From a virus (taxonomy: Duplodnaviria; Caudoviricetes), in the IMG/VR virus record IMGVR_UViG_3300020469_000008, positions 32,001 through 96,000 of that record: 64,000 nt of DNA; one strand, 5' to 3'. The translations under genes and the position numbers were made by a program. The notes under the pieces were generated by a model. The model was not told the origin of the DNA, searched no databases, and saw nothing but the letters and a program-made list of their open reading frames with translations. Positions 20,167-30,978 of the stretch are shown one piece after another; positions within the stretch are counted from its first letter, which is position 1, and every line of letters begins with the position of its first letter.

Positions 20167-20463
20167 ATGTCATCAATTAATAGAGATAAAATCAGAAAAT
20201 TAATTTTAAAAGAGTTTAAAATGATGGGAATGGCTGATATGGGCCACGGCGGGATGAAGCCAATGGGAATGGTGCACACTGTTGATCACGGCCATGAAGC
20301 TAGTCACGGTCATTCTGTGATGAAATCAGCTAAAAGTTGTGTATCGCGCGAAGATTGCTGTGCTGCAATTATGTGTTTGGTTGAATGTTGCGAATGCCCA
20401 ATCACAAAGCAAGTAATTATGGAATGCTGCCAAGAAATCATGTCTGGTCAACACGATCATTAA
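20167..20463 (+). CDS. leader-bearing Met/His/Cys-rich protein
   Basis: MSSINRDKIRKLILKE; His-rich linker; DCCAAIMCLVECCECP...ECCQE. Confidence 0.7.
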   Translation: MSSINRDKIRKLILKEFKMMGMADMGHGGMKPMGMVHTVDHGHEASHGHSVMKSAKSCVSREDCCAAIMCLVECCECPITKQVIMECCQEIMSGQHDH

Positions 20464-21839
20464 TGAAAATTACTCGACGCCAGCTCCAAATGTTAATACA
20501 GGAGGAGATACGACAGGTGAAACCGGGTTGTTATAAAGTATACCCGAAGAAACCAAAGCGTGGCAAGAAGCGTCGTAAAGCATTATCTAAAAAGTGCAAG
20601 ACTAAGAAAGCAGCAAAGAAGCATTTGGCAGCTATTGAAATTAGTAAATCGATGCGTGAGGATGACAATCCTTGTTGGGATGGTCACAGGCCAGGTGCTC
20701 AAACCGGACAAAAAACAAAAATCGGAAAGAGTGGAAATCGCGTTGCAAATTGTGAAAAGATAAAAGAATCAATTCTTTTAGAGTCCAAATATGAACAACT
20801 CATATCACAATTACCTGGGTTGTCGTTAGTTGTTACTGAAGATATGCCGCGCGGGTTTGCATTAGATTTGCAATACGATGATTACATGATCGCATCTGCA
20901 GAGATAGTAGCTCTTTCTGTAAACCCAGGTGAACCATGTATTCCTGAGACAATGTCAGTTAGTACTATTTATACCTCGCCAGATTATCAGAATTTAGGGA
21001 TTGGTGAACTTTTACTTGATCTGATATTCTACTATGCTAGCACGTTAGACGGAGGAAAAGGACGAGGTATAACAACAGATTTGCGAGGTGGTAACACACC
21101 AATTATTAATTACATAATTCAAAGAGCATTACAAGATCCTGCATACTACAAGCAGACCACCAAAGCCGGTAATGACGAGATGGACTTTTTTGAAAAAACT
21201 AGCGACCCGGATGATGATTGCTACTCCGAATTCCTTGACGGTAAAGGTATATACTGGTTTATTAGTCAAGGTATGTCCGAAGAAGAAGCATTCGAAAAAG
21301 TTGAAATGACAGATGGAGATTTAGGCACGACTAGCTCTTGGCGAAAGAGAGGTATTGAATCTATAAAGCCTATATATGACATGCTCACACAAAGACAGGG
21401 TGCTGATGTACTTTATAGACCAGTCATTAGAAGTCGACAGTTCCAAGATGCTTATCGTAATACACCTACTCCTGAAGAAATACGTTCATTTCAAAGAGGT
21501 AAGAAACTAAAAGAACGCAAAGAACCAAGAAAAGGCACCGGTAAAAAACCAAAAGGTAGTACTAGGCGATTATATACCGATGAGAATCCCAAGGATACTG
21601 TCTCTGTTAAGTTTCGAACTAAGTCTGATATACAGGACACTTTATCAAAAAAAAGCTTTAAGAGTAAAGAACATAAGCGGCAGTCGCAGATAATTAATCT
21701 CATACATCAGCGCGTTCGTGTTGCTTACAAAAATGCAAAAGATCCTGCAACGAAAAAACGCTTAAAGCTTGCGTATGATTATGCTAAACAGAGAAAAGAA
21801 GCCAGTAAGCTTAAAACAAAAAAAATGAGGAAGAAATGA
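20463..21839 (+). CDS. leader-bearing multi-module protein with a GNAT-like domain
   Basis: TAATG coupling at 20463; MKITRRQLQMLIQEE; GNAT motif A-like IYTSPDYQNLGIGELLLDLIF; basic modules on both sides. Confidence 0.65.
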   Translation: MKITRRQLQMLIQEEIRQVKPGCYKVYPKKPKRGKKRRKALSKKCKTKKAAKKHLAAIEISKSMREDDNPCWDGHRPGAQTGQKTKIGKSGNRVANCEKIKESILLESKYEQLISQLPGLSLVVTEDMPRGFALDLQYDDYMIASAEIVALSVNPGEPCIPETMSVSTIYTSPDYQNLGIGELLLDLIFYYASTLDGGKGRGITTDLRGGNTPIINYIIQRALQDPAYYKQTTKAGNDEMDFFEKTSDPDDDCYSEFLDGKGIYWFISQGMSEEEAFEKVEMTDGDLGTTSSWRKRGIESIKPIYDMLTQRQGADVLYRPVIRSRQFQDAYRNTPTPEEIRSFQRGKKLKERKEPRKGTGKKPKGSTRRLYTDENPKDTVSVKFRTKSDIQDTLSKKSFKSKEHKRQSQIINLIHQRVRVAYKNAKDPATKKRLKLAYDYAKQRKEASKLKTKKMRKK

Positions 21840-22351: not shown

Positions 22352-23152
22352 ATGAAAGTTACACGACGTAAACTTAAAATGATTATTGAGTCTTTCCTTC
22401 ATGAAGAAAAGGAAAAACTTGAGAAAGATCACGGCAAAAAATATGTTTGCCCAAGCTGTGGTCATGTTCATGATTCTAAAGAAGATATTAATGCCCTCTG
22501 GTCAGGAAAAAAGTGTGTAAAGTGCGGTACAAAATTTGACCTAAAGACCGGTAAAGTTCCATCAGGTAAAGGCAAGGGGCAAAAGTGGGGAATTCATGCT
22601 AATACTAAAAGTGAGTCAAAATTAAGAATGCTTCGCGAAAAAAGACATCGTAGAAAAAGAAAACTAAGAGAAACTGCGAAAGAAACTGAATGTCCTACAG
22701 CGACAACAGACATTAGTGTTAACACAGCTAATCGCGACCGAGCTCGCAAACTTGACTGGATTATATACGGCCCTTTAAATGTAGAATTTCCGGGAAAGTA
22801 TTGGGAAAAGATATCAAAAAAGTGGGGAACAGACGTTGAAGCAGCAAAGAAGTCAAACTGTGGTGTTTGTGTTGCTTTTGATCGATCCCCGAAGATGGTT
22901 GATGAGTGCATACCTGCAATAACGTCTGAACCTGTTGCAGATGAGTTCGGTGTTTTAGGGTATTGCTGGATGCACCACTTTAAGTGTCACAGTGCAAGAA
23001 CATGTAACACTTGGGCAGCTGGTGGTCCGATTAAGACTGATGAAGCGTCAGGCGAATGGTTTGAACGTAATAAAGACGGTGCGTTAAAGAAAGATCCAAT
23101 CGATCCTAATATTTATAGGGACGATACTAATACTTCACAGGAGACAGAATGA
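22352..23152 (+). CDS. leader-bearing Cys-rich (zinc-binding) protein
   Basis: MKVTRRKLKMIIES; CPSC...CVKC ribbon; second domain CPTAT...YGP...NCGVCVAFD...GYCWMHHFKCHSARTC. Confidence 0.7.
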   Translation: MKVTRRKLKMIIESFLHEEKEKLEKDHGKKYVCPSCGHVHDSKEDINALWSGKKCVKCGTKFDLKTGKVPSGKGKGQKWGIHANTKSESKLRMLREKRHRRKRKLRETAKETECPTATTDISVNTANRDRARKLDWIIYGPLNVEFPGKYWEKISKKWGTDVEAAKKSNCGVCVAFDRSPKMVDECIPAITSEPVADEFGVLGYCWMHHFKCHSARTCNTWAAGGPIKTDEASGEWFERNKDGALKKDPIDPNIYRDDTNTSQETE

Positions 23153-24237
23153 AAATATCAAGAAGAAGAATTAGACAACTTATAAGAGAATCCCGCGAAG
23201 AACATATCCAGGGAATTAGAAGTAAACTAGTTAGATTAAATGACGAATTAGAAAACAGACAAGAGGCACTTGATGATTTAAACTATCAATCACAAAGTAT
23301 GATGGATTTTTATTCAGATGACCCATATGCTGGTAGAGATGAGATGATGGCCGGTGACCCGATTAGAGATCAAATATATGACATCGAAAACAAGATAACA
23401 TTGTTGCAAAATCAACTAGATGCTTTAGAAGCTGCTAATGGTGGCCCGGTAGGTCAACTACCAAGGGGTAGAATATTCGAAGAAGTTTCTGATCTGACTG
23501 ATGAAAAACAAAAAGAAATAGATGACGCAGTTGCTGATTATTTAGCCAAAGAAGGCGGAGCAGCATCTGAAGAGGGAACCGAAGATATTGTTCGTGACAA
23601 GGTTGATGGCATTGATGCAAAATCGTATCTTTCAAACAATGAAAGATTTAAGCAGCTAACAGTAAATAACGACCCAATGGACTATTATGATACAACTTTA
23701 ACTGAAGCTAGAGTCTTTATTAGAGAGAAATTAGAAAAAATTGGTTTTTACAAGAAGTACGGTTACGGATTAGATGATATACCAAACAAAACAAAAGCGC
23801 ATGACGATATCATAGGGCACACGTGACTGACCCACGTTAAGCGGAAGGATTCTGCTTTAAATGAAGTTGGTGAAGTTTTATGGCACAGCCTTGATGAAAG
23901 TGGTCACATATCTGTTTATGACGTCGAATGGTCAGACGGTACAATTGAAAGAGATATCCCAGCAATTTTATTAGAAAAAGTTAAAGATAGTAATGCTGTC
24001 GACGAGGTTCACGAGGCACACGGTGTAGACGGACATAGACTAGATTCTGCTATCGATGAGAGAAAGTACAAGAAAAAGAAAAAAACAAAGAAACGTAAAA
24101 AGAAAAAGCATAGTTTGTACCCATATGTGTTTGGGTTTGGCTATCACCACGATGCTGAAAATTATGATTATGATATCGGTGGTGATTATGGAGATTTTGG
24201 AGGCGGCTTCGGTGACGGAGGCGGTGGTGGAGAATGA
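23149..24237 (+). CDS. leader-bearing protein with in-frame TGA at 23824-23826; candidate selenoprotein (362 codons if read through)
   Basis: After the TGA the same frame stays open for 136 codons (LTHVKRKDSALNEVGEVLWHSLDESGHISVYDVEWSDGTIERDIP...GGGGGE) and ends in an ATGA overlap with ORF 24234; hairpin directly after the TGA. Confidence 0.65.
23837..23860 (+). promoter_or_regulatory. bacterial SECIS-like hairpin
   Basis: TTAAGCGGAA-GGA-TTCTGC(T)TTAA: 10 pairs, one bulged U, G-first apical loop; starts 10 nt after the in-frame UGA, loop 20 nt from the UGA. Confidence 0.55.
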
Positions 24238-24743: not shown

Positions 24744-25895
24744 GTGGCTATATTTGCGAACACAATATCCCCAACACCATTTGGCATATACGATAATGAG
24801 AACGATTTTCAGACTGATGCTAACAATATGGTCACATTTGTTAAGAGAAAACTAGGTGATGATGTTTTATCAGTTGAGCTAACAAAGAAGCAGATATGGG
24901 GTAACTTTGAGGAAGCAACACTAGAATATAGTGCAATTTTAAATCAGTACCAAGCAAAATCCCAGCTAGTCAATTTTTTAGGATTTGCCACTGGCAGTAT
25001 TATGAGTGGCAGCGAAGAAAAATATATTCGTGAAAACTTAGAATTTTTAAATCGATTCGCTGAACCCTATGCGATGGAAGCAGGTATCGGGGGCTCCTAT
25101 AACTCCTTATCCGGATCGATTCAACTTGAAGTTGGTCGTCAAGATTATAATCTATATACAGAGTTAAGTGGTGCAAACGGCGGTCTTTTTGATAATACAA
25201 AAGGGAAACTAAAGATTGATGAAGTTTTCCATTACAACCCCCAGGCAGCTTATAGATTTTTTGATACGACATCAGCGATAAACTATTTAAATAATGAGTT
25301 TAGTTTTGAATCATTTACACCTGAGACTGTTTTTTATATTTTGCCTGTCTATGAAGACTTGTTAAGAGGCGGCCAACTGGACCTTTCAAATCGTGTAAGG
25401 CGATCTAATTTTTCATACAAAATTATGGGTACAAATTTTAGAGTATTTCCGATACCTACGAGTGGAAAAAAACTATTCTTTAGAATAAGACAATATCCAG
25501 ACCCAACACAACCTTCTTACCGTGATGATACAATTCATGGCGTTTCAAACATGAATAATCTACCTTTTGGTAATGTGCAATACAACCGTATCAACAGTAT
25601 AGGTCGACAGTGGATCAGAAGTTACACTCTAGCTATTTCAATGGAACAACTAGGTTATATTAGGGGTAAGTTTGGAAGTATTCCTGTGCCTAATTCTGAT
25701 GTTACTTTAAATAGTTCTGACTTAATTAGTAACGGTAGAACAGATCGCGATGCGCTCAAAGAAAAGTTGAGAGAATTATTAGATTCTATGACTTACGACA
25801 AATTGATGGAGATACAATCGACAAGAGCTGAGCAGATTCAAAAACAATTAAAATATGTACCGGTACCAAACGGTAAAGCAATCTTTCTAGGATAA
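24744..25895 (+). CDS. neck/head-completion protein (T4 gp13-like)
   Basis: GTG start after GAGG; RKLGDDVLSVELTKKQI...EEA; first gene of the neck-tail cluster. Confidence 0.6.
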   Translation: MAIFANTISPTPFGIYDNENDFQTDANNMVTFVKRKLGDDVLSVELTKKQIWGNFEEATLEYSAILNQYQAKSQLVNFLGFATGSIMSGSEEKYIRENLEFLNRFAEPYAMEAGIGGSYNSLSGSIQLEVGRQDYNLYTELSGANGGLFDNTKGKLKIDEVFHYNPQAAYRFFDTTSAINYLNNEFSFESFTPETVFYILPVYEDLLRGGQLDLSNRVRRSNFSYKIMGTNFRVFPIPTSGKKLFFRIRQYPDPTQPSYRDDTIHGVSNMNNLPFGNVQYNRINSIGRQWIRSYTLAISMEQLGYIRGKFGSIPVPNSDVTLNSSDLISNGRTDRDALKEKLRELLDSMTYDKLMEIQSTRAEQIQKQLKYVPVPNGKAIFLG

Positions 25896-26565: not shown

Positions 26566-27768
26566 ATGAGTAAAAAACAAATAGACCCTAAGCGAGTTAT
26601 TATAAAAGATTTTGATGGTAACAATGTACCTGAAGATTTTGATTTTCCATCAATTGGTATAGAAAATATTGATAGAGCTGTCTTTGACTTGTTTAACGAT
26701 GTACTTAGATTTCAGGTGACTAGTAAAGGCGTTGCAAAAAATGTACCAGTTATATTTGCTACTGGTGAAAGATTTGCACTCACTAGAAGAAAAAACCCAA
26801 TTAGAGACCGAAATAATACAAATATTTTACCCTTGATATCAATTGTTCGTGAAAATATTGACATTGGTGCAAGTCAAGGTGGAAAAGGTACAGCAATATC
26901 GTTTAGAGCACAACCAAATTATGTTGTTAAAAAGAAGCTTTCATCAAAAGATCGACAGTTTCAGAACTTATTAAACAAACAAGGTTTAAAAAATCAAGAT
27001 AATGTGGCAACAAACCAAAATTTTGTTGATACTGGTAACTCATTAATAGCACAACCTGGAAAGAAAGCAACAAGGCGCGAGAAAAATAATCTTAGTTTTT
27101 CTAAAGGTGCACAAATTAATTTAAAACCAGAAATTAACACGAACATATATGAAATCATACAAGTACCTTATCCTTACTTTGTAGCATTAAGTTATAATAT
27201 TACATTTTGGTGCCAATATATGCAACAAGGCAATCAGATGATTGAATATTTGTTAAATAAAATAGATGTGCCAGGCGGCGAATTTGCAATGCAAACAAAA
27301 GAAGGGTTTGAATTGGTCGCTTTTATTGGTGATAATATAACATTTAATAATAATTTTGACAGCATGTCTGACGATGAAAGAATTATTAAATACAACTTTT
27401 CATTAACAGTCCCGGGCTATATCTTAAATTCAAAACTTCCGGGATTGGCAAATCAAATGAGAAGTTACACGTCTGCACCAATGATCGATTTTTCATACAA
27501 CAGTGTAAATGCAAAGGTTTCATTAGATTTTCAACCAGACTCTGAACAACAAGAATTAGAAAAACATGTTTTATCTGACGTCACAAATAAAGAAGAAAGT
27601 GAATTAAGACGTGGTGAAAGCAACGAAACAATAGAAGCTTTTGTTACTAACCCTTTTTCTAATGAAGATGACACAGAATTTTTAAGAATAACTAATTCTA
27701 ACAAACGTACAGGTGAAACTGTTGTTTCAGCAAGAATTATAAAGGAAATTGATCGTCAATACGAATAA
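26566..27768 (+). CDS. tail completion/sheath terminator (T4 gp15-like)
   Basis: VPVIFATGERF, LPLISIVR, PYPYFVALSYNITFWC; directly precedes the sheath. Confidence 0.55.
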   Translation: MSKKQIDPKRVIIKDFDGNNVPEDFDFPSIGIENIDRAVFDLFNDVLRFQVTSKGVAKNVPVIFATGERFALTRRKNPIRDRNNTNILPLISIVRENIDIGASQGGKGTAISFRAQPNYVVKKKLSSKDRQFQNLLNKQGLKNQDNVATNQNFVDTGNSLIAQPGKKATRREKNNLSFSKGAQINLKPEINTNIYEIIQVPYPYFVALSYNITFWCQYMQQGNQMIEYLLNKIDVPGGEFAMQTKEGFELVAFIGDNITFNNNFDSMSDDERIIKYNFSLTVPGYILNSKLPGLANQMRSYTSAPMIDFSYNSVNAKVSLDFQPDSEQQELEKHVLSDVTNKEESELRRGESNETIEAFVTNPFSNEDDTEFLRITNSNKRTGETVVSARIIKEIDRQYE

Positions 27769-27828: not shown

Positions 27829-30800
27829 ATGGCAGAGCAAACATTTAGATCTCCGGGTTTTTTCGAACGTGAGATTGATTTAACTCAGAGAACAGTAGAA
27901 ATCGAAGGTGTACCTGCAGGGATTATTGGGACTGCCGCCCAAGGTCCAGCATTTGTTCCTGTCACACTAGGATCATTTGTTGATTTTGAAAGGAAATTCG
28001 GTTCACTTGATAAAGATAAGTTTGGACCGTACGCGGTAAGAGAATGGTTAAAAAATAGGACAGCTGTCACTTACATCAGAGTTTTAGGTGCTGGTGCTGC
28101 AAATTCAACAGGCGATATTAACAATACGCTTACAAAAGGAATTGTGAAGAATGCTGGTTTTTTAATAAAAGGTACAAAGGTCAATTCAAGAGACGGAACA
28201 GACGCGCGTCACGAGGGCAGTATACAATTTATTGTTGCTTCTCACGATGTTAACGAAAACGAAGTTGCGGGTTATCCTTTATTCACTGATAGTGATTCTT
28301 TTGATACATCAACATCAATAAGAATAGTAAGAGGTATGCTTTTCACAGCAACCGGATCCAGATTTCAAGTTTTGGATCACGACAAATTCTACAGCGCTGT
28401 AAACGCATCTGATGATTTAGCAAAAATTAAACAATACGCAGGTGTTACAACTGACGGTACTTTTAAACTGGTTTTGTCAAGTGCTATTGGTGCTAATTTT
28501 GGTAATGACGAAGGAAATGCAGGAATCAGAATATATACAGCCTCATTAAATCCTACTAGTAATCATTACGTTGGTAAGTTTTTAAATAAAAATCCAGATA
28601 AGTTTGGATCACAGCAACATTTGTTTTATGCAGACTTTGCTGTAGAAGATGAGCTAGCACGTGTTACATACAATGCGTCAAAAGGAACAGTGGGTATTGT
28701 ATCCGGGTCTGCACGAACAAGCGGAAATAGTGGCGATTCGGCCTTGAGCTTTAGAGACGCTTTTGGTAGATTTGATACGCGATACAAAACAGCAAGAACT
28801 ACATCATTTATTTCGCAGCCTTACGGCCTTAGAGAATATGACTTGTTTCATTTTGAATCACTTGATGATGGTGCTGTAGGTAACAAAAGAGTCAAAATAT
28901 CAATTTCAAACATTAAAAGATCTACCAATAAAAGGACAGACTTCGGGTCGTTTACAGTTTTAGTTAGAGATTATAATGATACTGACACAGACATGCGAAT
29001 ACTTGAGCAGTTTCCTCTTTGCACATTAAATCCGAAAGACGAGAACTATGTAGCAAACAAAATTGGTGACATGAAAGTTTTCTACAATTTTGACGCAGAG
29101 ACTGAATCTGAAAGAAGACTTAACGTCGAAGGTAAAAGACCTAACCGGTCTCAGTATGTAAGAATTGTGATGCACAAAGATGTTGAAGAGTTTTTGATTC
29201 CTGAAAACACATTACCTTTTGGCTTTAGAGGTATGCCACTATTAAAAACAAATGATAGTTTGACAGATAGTGACAGCGCACTAGCGGGAGGCTCTAGAAC
29301 AGTTGGTGGTCGTCATAGACTTTCACTATTAACCGGTTCTTCAGGTGTCGCAGGTGAAGACTTAGTACAGTCTATCTTACCACCCGTACCATTTAGATTT
29401 AAAACTACAAGAGGTGCTGTGGCGAGAGCTACAAATCCAGGATTTACCGGTCAACCCGGAGCACTTGAACTTAGCGATAACAGATACTTCTGGGGTGTTA
29501 AGCTCGAAAAATTAGCGCTCACAGGTACTGTTGGTGACGCAATATTACAGTCTAATGCTTCATCAACAAAGAATCCACTTGTAGAAAGTTATAGTAAATT
29601 TTTAGGAATATCAAAGTTAGATACACTACTCACCGGATCAGCCGCTGATGTGTTTAACAATAATAAATTTAGTTTGTCAAAAGTAGCATTATTTAATCAG
29701 ATTGCAACAACATCGACAATTGAAGCTTCTATAGCAAGCGCAATAACAGGTTCAGCAAATGATCATATGAAAGAAGCAGCATACTTAAGAAATGGTGTTA
29801 ATGAAACAAAGAACTATACTATACTCGATGACAATGGAAGTATTCAAAGGGTGACATTTGCAACTCTTGCAGCATCAAGAAACGCTAAATATTTTAATCG
29901 ATTTATAGATTATGCTAAATTTACTAACATAATGTATGGTGGTTTTGACGGTCTAAATATTTTAGATTCTGACAACCGCTTAATGAATGACAGGGCATCA
30001 TCAGTTGACGCTCAAGGGAAAGCAAATAAAAGTAATGGTACATTTACGCACGAAAATCTAAACGCAGTGTCAAGTCCTGGAACTGGAAAAGATAATAACA
30101 TAGTTAATTCATATAGAACTGCAGCAAGAATCATTACTGATCCTTTTGCGTCAAGAGTTAATATTGTGTCAATACCTGGCATTAGAGAACCTTTTGTTAC
30201 AGACTTTGTGTCAGATCTTACACGTGATTATAGTAAAGCGATTTATTTGATGGAATTACCTTCTTATGACGATAATAGTAATCGAATTTACGGTACACAA
30301 AGACCAAGCGTTCGCGAAACTGTTGAAGTTTTTGATGCACGTGCAATTGATAATAGCTATGTAGCGACATACTTTCCAGATGTGGCGTTTAACGATGAAG
30401 TAAACAGACAAATTGTTGATCTGCCGGCTTCGATCGCTGCTTTAAAAGCATTAGGGTATAACGATACTATCGCTTATCCTTGGTTTGCACCTGCAGGATT
30501 TAACAGGGGTGCTTTAGGTAATGTTGTGAATACAAAAGTTAGACTAAATGCAGAAGACAGGAACATTCTTTACGAATCAAGAATTAATCCAATTGCAAAC
30601 TTTCCTAACGGCGGGTTTGTTATTTTTGGTCAAAAGACACTGCAACAAGATAGATCAGCACTGGATAGAGTTAACGTAAGAAGAATGTTACTTGAAGTGA
30701 AAAGAATCGTATCAAACATCGCAAACAACTTAATTTTTGAACAAAACACACCGCAAACTCGTGCAAGATTTGTTGCAGAAGTAACACCACAACTCGCAAC

Positions 30801-30978
30801 AATACAAATTCAGCAAGGTATCGACCAATTTAAAGTTGTTATGGATAGTAGCAACAACACTGATTTAGATATCGAACAGAATAGATTAAATGGTAGAATT
30901 GTTTTAGTTCCGACACGAGCTGTAGAATTTATTGCAATTGATTTCATTATTACGAATTCAGGTGTAAGTTTCGAATAA
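27829..30978 (+). CDS. tail sheath protein 1 (T4 gp18-like)
   Basis: SPGFFEREIDLT, GPAFVP, PWFAPAGFNRG, FGQKTLQ, LDRVNVRRML, EFIAIDF. Confidence 0.92.
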   Translation: MAEQTFRSPGFFEREIDLTQRTVEIEGVPAGIIGTAAQGPAFVPVTLGSFVDFERKFGSLDKDKFGPYAVREWLKNRTAVTYIRVLGAGAANSTGDINNTLTKGIVKNAGFLIKGTKVNSRDGTDARHEGSIQFIVASHDVNENEVAGYPLFTDSDSFDTSTSIRIVRGMLFTATGSRFQVLDHDKFYSAVNASDDLAKIKQYAGVTTDGTFKLVLSSAIGANFGNDEGNAGIRIYTASLNPTSNHYVGKFLNKNPDKFGSQQHLFYADFAVEDELARVTYNASKGTVGIVSGSARTSGNSGDSALSFRDAFGRFDTRYKTARTTSFISQPYGLREYDLFHFESLDDGAVGNKRVKISISNIKRSTNKRTDFGSFTVLVRDYNDTDTDMRILEQFPLCTLNPKDENYVANKIGDMKVFYNFDAETESERRLNVEGKRPNRSQYVRIVMHKDVEEFLIPENTLPFGFRGMPLLKTNDSLTDSDSALAGGSRTVGGRHRLSLLTGSSGVAGEDLVQSILPPVPFRFKTTRGAVARATNPGFTGQPGALELSDNRYFWGVKLEKLALTGTVGDAILQSNASSTKNPLVESYSKFLGISKLDTLLTGSAADVFNNNKFSLSKVALFNQIATTSTIEASIASAITGSANDHMKEAAYLRNGVNETKNYTILDDNGSIQRVTFATLAASRNAKYFNRFIDYAKFTNIMYGGFDGLNILDSDNRLMNDRASSVDAQGKANKSNGTFTHENLNAVSSPGTGKDNNIVNSYRTAARIITDPFASRVNIVSIPGIREPFVTDFVSDLTRDYSKAIYLMELPSYDDNSNRIYGTQRPSVRETVEVFDARAIDNSYVATYFPDVAFNDEVNRQIVDLPASIAALKALGYNDTIAYPWFAPAGFNRGALGNVVNTKVRLNAEDRNILYESRINPIANFPNGGFVIFGQKTLQQDRSALDRVNVRRMLLEVKRIVSNIANNLIFEQNTPQTRARFVAEVTPQLATIQIQQGIDQFKVVMDSSNNTDLDIEQNRLNGRIVLVPTRAVEFIAIDFIITNSGVSFE

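What the first reader, a model, noticed from the sequence alone, without database searches (positions are those of the whole stretch)
23824..23866. SECIS-like hairpin directly 3' of the in-frame UGA
Seen: UGA-CUGACCCACG-[UUAAGCGGAA-GGA-UUCUGC(U)UUAA] gives a 10-pair stem with a bulged U and a small loop starting with G, 20 nt from the UGA. Established: bacterial SECIS elements (e.g. E. coli fdhF) lie inside the coding region just 3' of UGA with a G early in a small apical loop. The codons here (CTG ACC CAC GTT AAG CGG AAG) are GC-ending and include CGG, which looks rare in this AT-rich genome, suggesting RNA-level constraint.
Basis: partly seen in the sequence, partly recalled or inferred. Interest (0 to 1): 0.8.

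Follow-up and report, generated by a model that had tools for sequence, protein, structure and literature searches.

The report
Selenocysteine-type hairpin in phage gene
An RNA hairpin 12 bases after an internal UGA "stop" in a marine giant-phage gene is kept and co-evolves in about 110 different related phage sequences, while the few relatives that lack it have cysteine at that spot; this is the signature of selenocysteine insertion, which I found reported for no bacteriophage protein.

Summary
The hairpin is real: UGA 23824-23826, a 12-nt spacer, an 8-bp stem (23839-23846 with 23850-23857) and a GGA loop. Its folding energy alone is unremarkable. The comparative evidence is strong.

- **UGA conserved.** All 144 homologous loci found (110 distinct versions, several protein subfamilies) keep TGA at this codon. 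None has TAA, TAG or TGG.
- **Hairpin conserved.** 109 of 110 versions have a small-loop hairpin 10-14 nt downstream, against 0.5-0.7% at random positions.
- **Stems covary.** Stem sequences differ between subfamilies. Seven of 8 pairs show compensatory double changes.
- **RNA-level constraint.** Synonymous variation collapses exactly over the stem codons.
- **Loops.** They follow the bacterial SECIS pattern G[G/U].
- **Cys relatives.** Four distant relatives carry a real Cys codon at the site and lack the hairpin.
- **bSECIS criteria.** All four published consensus criteria are met.
- **No phage decoder.** Neither this phage nor five relatives, one of them complete, encodes tRNA-Sec, a UGA suppressor or SelD; SelB was sought only in this record. 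TGA is otherwise a normal stop.

Best reading (about 0.68): a SECIS that recruits host SelB to insert selenocysteine into an H-x-U-x-x-H site of a leader-tagged, probably capsid-packaged protein. Main rival (about 0.22): SelB-independent programmed readthrough. The host is unknown, so Sec itself is inferred. This scan has noted similar candidates on other phage DNA.

The parts
23149..24237 (+). Full recoded gene: 362 residues with one in-frame UGA at codon 226. Its true stop, TGA 24235-24237, overlaps the next gene's ATG (ATGA).
   Evidence: Translation. The frame after the UGA is under protein-level selection; for example Ser +21 uses six codons and Trp is always TGG. Homologs span the UGA.
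23149..23190 (+). N-terminal leader MKISRRRIRQLIRE, shared with neighbouring genes. It is a putative capsid-targeting peptide.
   Evidence: Starts of ORFs 21836, 22352, 23149 and 24234 share the motif. The capsid-targeting reading comes from earlier scan notes and was not tested here.
23731..23823 (+). Conserved pre-UGA segment (LEKIGFYKKY...DDIIGHT). It is the first part of the conserved module, which runs across the UGA.
   Evidence: Alignments A1 and A4. The N-terminal parts upstream of it vary freely between homologs.
23824..23826 (+). In-frame UGA, the candidate Sec codon, inside the motif H-x-U-x-x-H.
   Evidence: TGA in all 144 homologous loci. Real TGC or TGT in four distant homologs.
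23827..23838 (+). 12-nt spacer (codons L-T-H-V). Synonymous sites vary freely here, so it is not part of the conserved structure.
   Evidence: Spacer length is 10-14 nt in all subfamilies.
23839..23857 (+). Core hairpin: 5' arm 23839-23846, loop GGA 23847-23849, 3' arm 23850-23857. This is the candidate bacterial SECIS.
   Evidence: MFE folds. RNAalifold consensus. 97% of cells paired against 30-69% when slid. Seven of 8 pairs show double changes across subfamilies. Synonymous entropy is about 0 over these codons.
23837..23860 (+). Extended stem: two more U-A pairs (23837-38 with 23859-60) beyond the bulged U 23858. It is weakly conserved.
   Evidence: pair 21/42 is unpaired in 14 of 74 sequences. 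RNAalifold does not predict it.
23833..23979 (+). Small beta-barrel domain (SH3/Tudor-like) that starts right after the UGA.
   Evidence: AlphaFold2 model, pLDDT 74-89 for residues 30-85. Weak Foldseek matches to YorP, Tudor, SH3 and KOW domains. Repeat proteins that match this part are Tudor/Agenet by Pfam.
24010..24036 (+). His-rich motif HEAHGVDGH. One His of an H-x-H pair is invariant among the 13 distant members aligned in A3.
   Evidence: Alignment A3.
24064..24234 (+). Lys-rich stretch followed by a Gly/Asp/aromatic-rich C-terminal tail.
   Evidence: A below-threshold Pfam hit to YxzE-like is taken as low complexity.

Best explanation
The hairpin is a bacterial-type selenocysteine insertion sequence (SECIS) inside the coding region of a phage gene.

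Proposed mechanism: when the ribosome reaches UGA 23824-23826, the hairpin 12 nt downstream is still folded at the mRNA entrance. Its G-rich apical loop binds the host elongation factor SelB carrying Sec-tRNA(Sec). SelB delivers selenocysteine to the A site in competition with release factor 2. The result is a 362-residue protein with Sec in an invariant H-x-U-x-x-H site at the start of a small SH3/Tudor-like barrel.

The protein carries the N-terminal leader shared by many proteins of this phage, so it is probably packaged in the capsid.

Shown here:
- The UGA is read through. The downstream frame is under protein-level selection, has no start codon, and belongs to a conserved module that spans the stop.
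- The hairpin is a selected RNA structure tied to the UGA.

Inferred:
- SelB binding, Sec as the inserted residue, and use of host machinery.
For: 1. **UGA is strictly conserved.** It is TGA in all 144 homologous loci (110 distinct versions), across subfamilies down to about 20-35% protein identity. None has TAA, TAG, TGG or another sense codon. All 9 database proteins tested that show W at this position are code-4 gene calls of TGA.

2. **The only sense codons found are Cys.** They are TGC in L093, TGT in L096, TGT in L159 and TGC in L160, in two subfamilies. They align without a gap in the same H-x-[U/C]-x-x-H motif.

3. **Hairpin tracks the UGA.** It is present in 109 of 110 UGA versions at a spacer of 10-14 nt and absent there in all 4 Cys forms. 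The background rate is 0.5-0.7% of random positions or TGA triplets.

4. **Structure is kept, sequence is not.** Examples: AAGCGGAA/UUCUGCUU, AAGAGGAA/UUCCUCUU, AAGUUGAA/UUCAACUU, AAGAUUCA/UGAAUCUU, ACUUGGGG/CUCCAAGU, AAAGCUG/CAGCUUU, GUGGAA/UUCCAC and GUACAC/GUGUAC. In an ungapped alignment anchored on the UGA, 7 of 8 pairs have double changes. 94% of cells are paired, against 37-61% when slid, and the covariation score is 0.64 against 0.19 in shuffles. Within the close subfamily the C-G to A-U switch needs at least 3 changes on a tree built with the hairpin masked.

5. **Synonymous variation vanishes over the stem codons only.** AAG 77/77, CGG or AGG only, AAG 79/79, GAT 62/62, GCT 64/65. 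This is despite genome usage of 2.3% for CGG and 29% for AAG.

6. **All four bSECIS consensus constraints are met.** They are a loop of 3-9 nt with a stem of 4-16 bp; G in the first two loop positions followed by G or U; 16-37 nt between UGA and loop; MFE at or below -7.5 kcal/mol (PMC13188914). Here the values are GGA, 8 bp, 20 nt and -8.3 kcal/mol. The common loops elsewhere are GGG, GGUCU, GUC, AGUU and CGUGA, which fit N(0-1)G[G/U]. The first loop base G is invariant in the 17 same-geometry versions of A6.

7. **Not a code change or a phage tRNA.** TGA ends 41 of 194 long coding-strand frames. Trp is always TGG. There is no tRNA-Sec or UCA-anticodon tRNA in this record or in five relatives, including a 100%-complete 186-kb genome.

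8. **A short product makes little sense in one subfamily.** In the H-K-UGA-MKEG subfamily only about 57 leader and coiled residues precede the UGA, and the only folded domain follows it. A useful truncated product is therefore unlikely there.
Against: - No Sec machinery was found in the phage record (about 70% complete) or in its relatives. tRNA-Sec and selD were sought in this record and in five relatives; selB was sought in this record only; selA was not searched. Everything therefore depends on an unidentified host.
- The family is absent from about 185,000 GTDB species genomes. No host link could be made, so the host's Sec trait could not be tested.
- The protein is not a recognisable redox enzyme. 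It has no CxxU or UxxC partner cysteine, and its fold is a small SH3/Tudor-like barrel of unknown function.
- Cys forms are few (4 distinct) and distant (26-38% identity to the window protein over the aligned module).
- Loop sequences differ between subfamilies (GGA, AGUU, GGUCU, GUC). This requires tolerant or different SelB proteins.
- For this single sequence the hairpin's energy is within the range of shuffles.
- A hairpin that is present with a stop codon and absent with a sense codon is also what a SelB-independent readthrough stimulator would show.
Confidence: 0.68

Rival explanations
1. SelB-independent programmed readthrough. The hairpin, lodged at the ribosome's mRNA entrance, slows or hinders release factor 2 at a leaky UGA. 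A near-cognate tRNA (Trp or Cys) then decodes it at a set frequency. This would limit the amount of full-length protein or give two products.
For: - UGA is the leakiest stop, and most versions have C as the next base.
- The phage and its relatives carry no Sec machinery.
- The protein is not a typical redox selenoprotein.
- A hairpin present with the stop and absent with a sense codon fits this reading too.
- An earlier first-reader note on this window proposed readthrough.
Against: - Sense-codon relatives have Cys in 4 of 4 cases and never Trp, the usual near-cognate reading of UGA in bacteria (established knowledge). The site lies in an invariant H-x-[U/C]-x-x-H motif.
- The base after the UGA is not conserved: C, U, G or A.
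- The loops keep the SelB-type G[G/U] pattern, which a purely steric block would not need.
- The spacing of 10-14 nt matches the minimal E. coli SECIS (11 nt, recalled from Liu et al. 1998).
- From my own knowledge, no hairpin-stimulated stop readthrough is established in bacteria.
- In one subfamily the truncated product would be about 57 residues of leader only.
Confidence: 0.22
2. The UGA is a true stop. The downstream domain is either made separately by termination-reinitiation, or the gene is broken (pseudogene or assembly error).
For: - In one subfamily the codon after TGA is ATG in most members and GTG in L148. That looks like a stop-start junction.
- Gene callers under table 11 end the gene at the UGA.
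Against: - In the window's subfamily the codon after TGA is CTG, CTA, CTT, TTA, TTG, GCG or GCC. Other subfamilies have TTT/TTC, AGT or GCT. No ATG, GTG or TTG follows in frame for 96 codons in the window.
- The residues right after the UGA (x-x-H) are conserved and must be translated.
- Cys forms are continuous through the site.
- 144 loci under purifying selection exclude a pseudogene or an assembly artefact.
Confidence: 0.04
3. Alternative genetic code or phage-encoded suppressor. TGA is a sense codon (Trp as in table 4, Gly as in table 25) in the host, or is read by a phage tRNA late in infection.
For: - Public gene calls of many homologs used table 4 and show W.
- Stop-codon recoding is known in other large phages (established knowledge).
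Against: - TGA ends 41 of 194 long frames on the coding strand here and 40 of 160 in the complete relative, including tidy ATGA overlaps.
- This is the only in-frame TGA of its kind in the genome.
- Conserved Trp positions are always TGG and Gly positions always GGN.
- No tRNA with anticodon UCA is found in six phage records. The tRNA-Sec model hits are tRNA-Leu(UAA).
Confidence: 0.02

Closest known systems
Bacterial SECIS elements (prototype E. coli fdhF; consensus model of Zhang and Gladyshev as summarised in PMC13188914)
   Same: - A hairpin inside the ORF directly 3' of an in-frame UGA.
- A small apical loop with G followed by G or U.
- 20 nt from UGA to loop, within the 16-37 nt range.
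- An 8-bp upper stem and an MFE below -7.5 kcal/mol.
- Cys-containing homologs that lack the hairpin.
- A 12-nt spacer, close to the 11 nt of the minimal E. coli element (the latter from memory).
   Different: - It is carried by a bacteriophage that encodes none of selA, selB, selC or selD in the DNA held (selA not searched), so it must use an unknown host's factors.
- The loop is a GGR triloop rather than GGUC with a bulged U.
- The protein is a small SH3/Tudor-like, leader-tagged virion-module protein with an H-x-U-x-x-H site, not a redox enzyme with a known function.
Programmed UGA readthrough of phage Qbeta coat protein (A1 protein)
   Same: - A phage structural-module gene in which ribosomes pass an in-frame UGA to make a longer product.
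- No phage-encoded decoding factor.
   Different: - In Qbeta, near-cognate tRNA-Trp decodes the UGA at a few per cent, the signal is the local context, and the stop lies between two domains (established knowledge).
- Here the UGA sits inside a conserved motif, a covarying hairpin at SECIS distance follows it, and sense-codon relatives have Cys.
Selenoproteins of eukaryotic viruses (glutathione-peroxidase homologs of molluscum contagiosum virus and fowlpox virus)
   Same: A virus gene with a Sec-UGA that relies wholly on host Sec machinery. PMC8310308 notes that a few viruses redefine UGA as Sec.
   Different: - Those are captured host redox enzymes with eukaryotic 3'-UTR SECIS elements (established knowledge).
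- This is a bacterial-type in-ORF hairpin in a phage-specific protein family with no cellular homolog in about 185,000 genomes.
T4 internal proteins and Alt with a capsid-targeting sequence
   Same: An N-terminal basic leader ending in Glu is shared by many otherwise unrelated proteins encoded next to head and tail genes (earlier notes).
   Different: - Packaging and cleavage were not tested here.
- No T4 internal protein is known to contain a recoded UGA (established knowledge).

Membership tests
Bacterial SECIS / selenoprotein gene | In-frame UGA inside a continuous, conserved ORF | tested here: met
   136 sense codons follow the UGA and the first 96 have no start codon. The downstream frame is under protein-level selection. 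TGA is conserved in 144 loci.
Bacterial SECIS / selenoprotein gene | Stem-loop just 3' of the UGA with a 3-9 nt apical loop and a 4-16 bp upper stem | tested here: met
   An 8-bp stem with a 3-nt loop. 109 of 110 versions have a 5-10 bp stem and a loop within 3-9 nt, mostly 3-5 nt.
Bacterial SECIS / selenoprotein gene | G in the first two loop positions, mostly followed by G or U | tested here: met
   The loop here is GGA. The common loops elsewhere are GGG, GGUCU, GUC, AGUU and CGUGA. The first loop base G is invariant in A6. My scan required a G in positions 1-2, so only the following G or U is an independent observation.
Bacterial SECIS / selenoprotein gene | 16-37 nt between the UGA and the apical loop | tested here: met
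   20 nt here. It is about 18-20 nt in all the common subfamily types (spacer 10-14 nt plus stem).
Bacterial SECIS / selenoprotein gene | MFE of the element at or below -7.5 kcal/mol | tested here: met
   -8.3 kcal/mol for 23824-23866. This is marginal: the 8-bp core alone is -6.8, and the z-score against shuffles is only -1.37.
Bacterial SECIS / selenoprotein gene | Cys-containing homologs whose Cys aligns with the UGA | tested here: met
   P0099/L093 TGC, P0098/L096 TGT, L159 TGT, L160 TGC. The two database proteins (P0099, P0098) translate by table 11.
Bacterial SECIS / selenoprotein gene | Structure conserved through compensatory changes in UGA forms and absent from Cys forms | tested here: met
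   for covariation. for the absence of a hairpin at +10 to +14 in the 4 Cys forms.
Bacterial SECIS / selenoprotein gene | SelB binding, and tRNA-Sec, SelA and SelD available in the cell where the gene is translated; selenium in the protein | not testable with these tools
   The host is unknown. No such genes were found in six phage records (tRNA-Sec and selD in all six; selB in this record only; selA not searched). The family is absent from GTDB genomes.
Near-cognate programmed readthrough (Qbeta A1 type) | Sense-codon relatives carry the near-cognate residue (Trp, TGG), and a leaky local stop context is conserved | tested here: not met
   No TGG was found in any locus. Sense forms are Cys. 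The base after the UGA varies: C, U, G or A.
Alternative genetic code (table 4 or 25) or phage suppressor tRNA | TGA used as a sense codon throughout genes, or a UCA-anticodon tRNA encoded | tested here: not met
   There is a single in-frame TGA of this kind. TGA is a common terminator. Trp is always TGG. No such tRNA was found.

The most novel reading that the evidence does not exclude
A widespread family of marine jumbo-phage proteins are true selenoproteins. The phage encodes only the UGA and a SECIS and hijacks the host's SelB and Sec-tRNA(Sec). The Sec-bearing H-x-U-x-x-H/SH3-like protein is loaded into the capsid by its leader and delivered into the next cell. Infection success and host range would then be tied to Sec-using bacteria and to selenium supply in the ocean.
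Probability: 0.55. Interest if true: 0.85.

Novelty: new member of a known kind. Interest (0 to 1): 0.72.

Why it matters
- **New place for selenoproteins.** If the UGA encodes selenocysteine, this is a selenoprotein family that belongs to bacteriophages. It has no cellular homolog and is common in ocean metagenomes (Tara, Arctic, coastal and deep samples). In the library I could search I found no report of a phage-encoded selenoprotein.
- **Link between phage and host biology.** It would tie phage reproduction to the host's Sec machinery and to selenium availability. It would also give a host-range marker: hosts must carry selABCD.
- **New Sec chemistry.** It would add a non-redox-looking structural context, H-x-U-x-x-H on an SH3-like barrel.
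- **Annotation.** Public gene calls of this family are wrong in two ways. They are either truncated at the UGA or translated with table 4 as Trp.
- **If the rival is right.** The hairpin would then be a structure-stimulated stop-readthrough signal in a bacterial system, which I do not know to be established. That would also be of interest.

Tried and rejected
- **Known phages.** blastn and tblastn of the region, and of the domain, against 50,697 phage records gave no match. The tail sheath is at most 34% identical to known phages.
- **Protein families.** Pfam and PHROGs found no family for the protein. A PDB sequence-profile search found nothing. Foldseek against PDB gave only weak SH3/Tudor/YorP-like rows.
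- **Host identification.** The family was sought in GTDB species genomes by protein patterns and by a 30-nt degenerate DNA pattern. There was no true hit, and the one DNA match is a chance match in an unrelated frame. Alignment A3 was too divergent for that collection. The host's Sec trait therefore stays untested.
- **Phage-borne Sec parts.** tRNA-Sec model hits of 35-43 bits in five relatives are tRNA-Leu(UAA). No selB or selD was found.
- **Other Sec candidates.** None was found in this genome or in the complete relative G002.
- **Single-sequence folding statistics.** They do not single out the hairpin.
- **Close relatives of the Cys form P0099.** None was found in IMG/VR.
Full report
**Setting**

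The window is bases 32001-96000 of a 202,054-bp single-contig IMG/VR virus record. It has 36.6% G+C and CheckV completeness of about 70%. Nearly all genes lie on the + strand.

The region holds T4-like neck and tail genes: a gp13-like gene at 24744-25895, a gp15-like gene at 26566-27768, and a tail sheath at 27829-30978. The sheath is at most 34% identical to any deposited phage. The phage is therefore an uncultured marine jumbo myovirus with no close cultured relative.

**The observation**

ORF 23149-23826 ends in TGA 23824-23826. The same frame then stays open for 136 more codons, to TGA 24235-24237, which overlaps the ATG of the next gene. The first 96 of those codons contain no ATG, GTG or TTG. 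This is the only such arrangement on the coding strand of the genome.

Downstream of the UGA lie a 12-nt spacer, then AAGCGGAA, GGA, UUCUGCUU (23839-23857). These form 8 contiguous pairs around a triloop.

RNAfold puts this hairpin in the minimum-energy structure of both the 43-nt and the 71-nt windows. The energy (-8.3 kcal/mol, z -1.37; z -0.43 for 71 nt) is not unusual for one sequence. Whether it means anything had to be decided by comparison with relatives.

**The UGA is conserved and read through**

Protein searches found homologs of two kinds. One kind stops at ...DDIIGHT. The other continues as ...IIGHT-W-LTHVKRK.... All nine W proteins whose DNA I fetched translate only with TGA=W, so the W is an artefact of table-4 gene calling.

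I scanned IMG/VR and JGI metagenome contigs. Together with the assembly look-ups, this gave 144 loci with the homologous site, in 110 distinct downstream versions. Every one has TGA. None has TAA, TAG, TGG or any other codon.

The frame after the UGA is under protein-level selection. Conserved Ser uses all six codons, Leu up to six, Gly four, and Trp is always TGG. The conserved module starts about 30 residues before the UGA and runs on after it. The parts further upstream differ freely between homologs.

The codon after TGA is usually not a start codon: CTN, TTR, GCN, TTY or AGT. Reinitiation therefore cannot explain the downstream protein.

TGA is otherwise a normal terminator: 41 of 194 long frames here and 40 of 160 in a complete relative. 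No tRNA with anticodon UCA exists in this record or in five relatives. The hits to the tRNA-Sec model there are tRNA-Leu(UAA). An alternative code or a phage suppressor tRNA is therefore excluded. The UGA is recoded locally.

**The hairpin is a selected RNA structure tied to the UGA**

*Close subfamily.* In 74 distinct 57-nt versions the stem is paired in 97% of cells, against 30-69% when the 3' arm is slid by 1-3 columns. The C-G pair is replaced by A-U in 13 sequences, through a synonymous CGG to AGG change together with an Ala to Ser change. The G-U pair becomes G-C in 26. RNAalifold predicts the stem. On a tree built with the hairpin masked, the C-G to A-U switch needs at least three changes.

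*Synonymous sites.* Entropy is about 1-2 bits at most codons but about 0 at codons +5 to +10: AAG 77/77, CGG or AGG only, AAG 79/79, GAT 62/62, GCT 64/65. In this genome CGG is 2.3% of Arg codons and AAG 29% of Lys codons. The spacer codons vary freely.

*Divergent subfamilies.* These encode different peptides after the UGA, yet each has its own hairpin at nearly the same distance:
- AAGUUGAA-GUC-UUCAACUU
- AAGAUUCA-GGA-UGAAUCUU
- GGAAGAA-GGA-UUCUUCC
- ACUUGGGG-GGA-CUCCAAGU, or CUUGGG-GGUCU-CCUAAG
- GUGGAA-GUC-UUCCAC
- AAAGCUG-AGUU-CAGCUUU, with GUCUG/CAGAC and AGGCUG/CAGCCU variants
- GUACAC-CGUGA-GUGUAC

*Cross-subfamily count.* In an ungapped alignment of 17 versions anchored on the UGA, 7 of 8 pairs show changes on both sides. 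94% of cells are paired, against 37-61% when slid. The covariation score is 0.64, against 0.19 in shuffles (0 of 500 reach it). The first loop base is always G. The MKEG subfamily alone gives 96% paired, with two compensatory pairs.

*Overall rate.* 109 of 110 versions carry a perfect-stem hairpin of 5-10 bp, with a small loop that has G in position 1 or 2, and a spacer of 10-14 nt. In the phage genome only 0.5-0.7% of random positions or TGA triplets carry a hairpin of that kind that is also stable (-5 kcal/mol or lower) at that spacing.

**Which kind of recoding**

The published consensus for bacterial SECIS elements asks for four things (PMC13188914):
- a 3-9 nt apical loop on a 4-16 bp stem;
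- a G in the first two loop positions, mostly followed by G or U;
- 16-37 nt between the UGA and the loop;
- an MFE at or below -7.5 kcal/mol.

The window's element meets all four: GGA, 8 bp, 20 nt, -8.3 kcal/mol. The common loops of the other subfamilies fit N(0-1)G[G/U].

The second classical criterion is Cys homologs, and it is also met. Four distinct distant relatives have a true Cys codon aligned with the UGA, without a gap:
- P0099, ...LGHS-C-ATHV..., TGC
- P0098, ...KHS-C-ASHV..., TGT
- L159, TGT
- L160, TGC

The two database proteins translate by table 11. All four lack a hairpin at +10 to +14, and their Lys codon there is AAA. P0099 belongs to the same sub-branch as the UGA forms L172 and L173, which do have the hairpin.

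Across the family the invariant residues are H(-2), U/C and the His of the WHSL motif. The His at +3 is kept in most members, and a later H-x-H is kept among the distant members aligned. This suggests a metal-binding or catalytic site.

The AlphaFold2 model has pLDDT 74-89 for residues 30-85. It places the site at the start of a small SH3/Tudor-like barrel. Structural matches are weak, and no family or solved relative is known.

**Weighing**

These facts are the standard computational signature of a selenoprotein gene. I therefore rate SECIS-directed Sec insertion by host SelB at about 0.68.

The main rival is SelB-independent programmed readthrough stimulated by the hairpin. It explains the link between the UGA and the hairpin, and the lack of phage Sec genes. 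It does not explain several other findings:
- the only sense codons found are Cys rather than Trp;
- the base after the UGA is free to vary;
- the loops keep a G[G/U] pattern;
- in one subfamily the UGA lies before the only folded domain.

I rate it at about 0.22.

What cannot be settled here is the host. The family is absent from about 185,000 GTDB species genomes. Neither this phage nor its relatives carry selB (searched in this record only), selD or tRNA-Sec. Earlier scan notes suggest a Myxococcota-like host; I did not test that. A 2026 preprint reports that Pelagibacter lacks selC while Actinomarina carries the full machinery. Sec-competent hosts therefore exist among abundant marine bacteria, but not all candidates qualify.

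**Context and novelty**

The protein starts with MKISRRRIRQLIRE. Neighbouring genes 21836, 22352 and 24234 share this leader. Earlier agents of this scan read it as a capsid-targeting peptide. If that is right, the Sec protein is virion cargo.

I found no paper describing a phage-encoded selenoprotein, and the GOS selenoproteome study does not mention phages. This scan has flagged comparable UGA-plus-hairpin genes on other phage DNA, in at least 41 genomes. One of them is a leader-family gene of another marine jumbo phage. Those are unchecked AI notes and are not independent evidence.

Mechanistically the element is an ordinary bacterial SECIS. The new points are its carrier and the protein family.

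Noticed in passing
window 16617, 21836, 22352, 23149, 24234 (gene starts); also inside 20385-21839: A run of otherwise unrelated genes starts with the same basic leader, MK[IV][STD][RK]..L[RK].[IL]I.E. The UGA-containing gene is one of them, and so are its homologs, including the Cys form P0099.
   Followed up: partly
G000 genome 151825-152161 (outside the window): ARAGORN calls a one-piece tmRNA gene with tag ANNNNFYDVALAA. The record also has only three tRNAs: Arg-TCT, Gly-GCC and Met/Ile-CAT.
   Followed up: no
database proteins P0003-P0040 (homologs of window 23149-24237): Public gene calls of this family are systematically wrong. They are either truncated at the UGA or translated with table 4, giving Trp (9 of 9 tested). 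Short contigs seem to be switched to table 4 by this one gene.
   Followed up: yes
P0012, P0019 (homologs; no window coordinates): Some homologs carry a roughly 250-residue insertion upstream of the conserved module. It looks like a lytic-transglycosylase or lysozyme-type domain, so the N-terminal part of the family is modular.
   Followed up: no
P0024 (2515 aa), P0074, P0101: Giant proteins made of 5-20 Tudor/Agenet-like repeats match the post-UGA barrel of the window protein (residues about 250-285). This supports a Tudor/SH3-like fold assignment.
   Followed up: partly
G000 genome 196526 (outside the window): The only other TGA stop of a long frame that is followed by a strong hairpin at 10-14 nt: a 9-bp GC-rich stem with a GAAA tetraloop, -15.6 kcal/mol. 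It is probably a transcription terminator and not a recoding site.
   Followed up: no
It has no anticodon loop with UCA, so it is not a tRNA-Sec or a UGA suppressor.
   Followed up: partly
window 22352-23152: The upstream gene has a weak FmdB-like/zinc-ribbon match (phrog_1076, PF23137, below threshold). The GOS study lists an FmdB-family selenoprotein, but this gene has no in-frame UGA.
   Followed up: no
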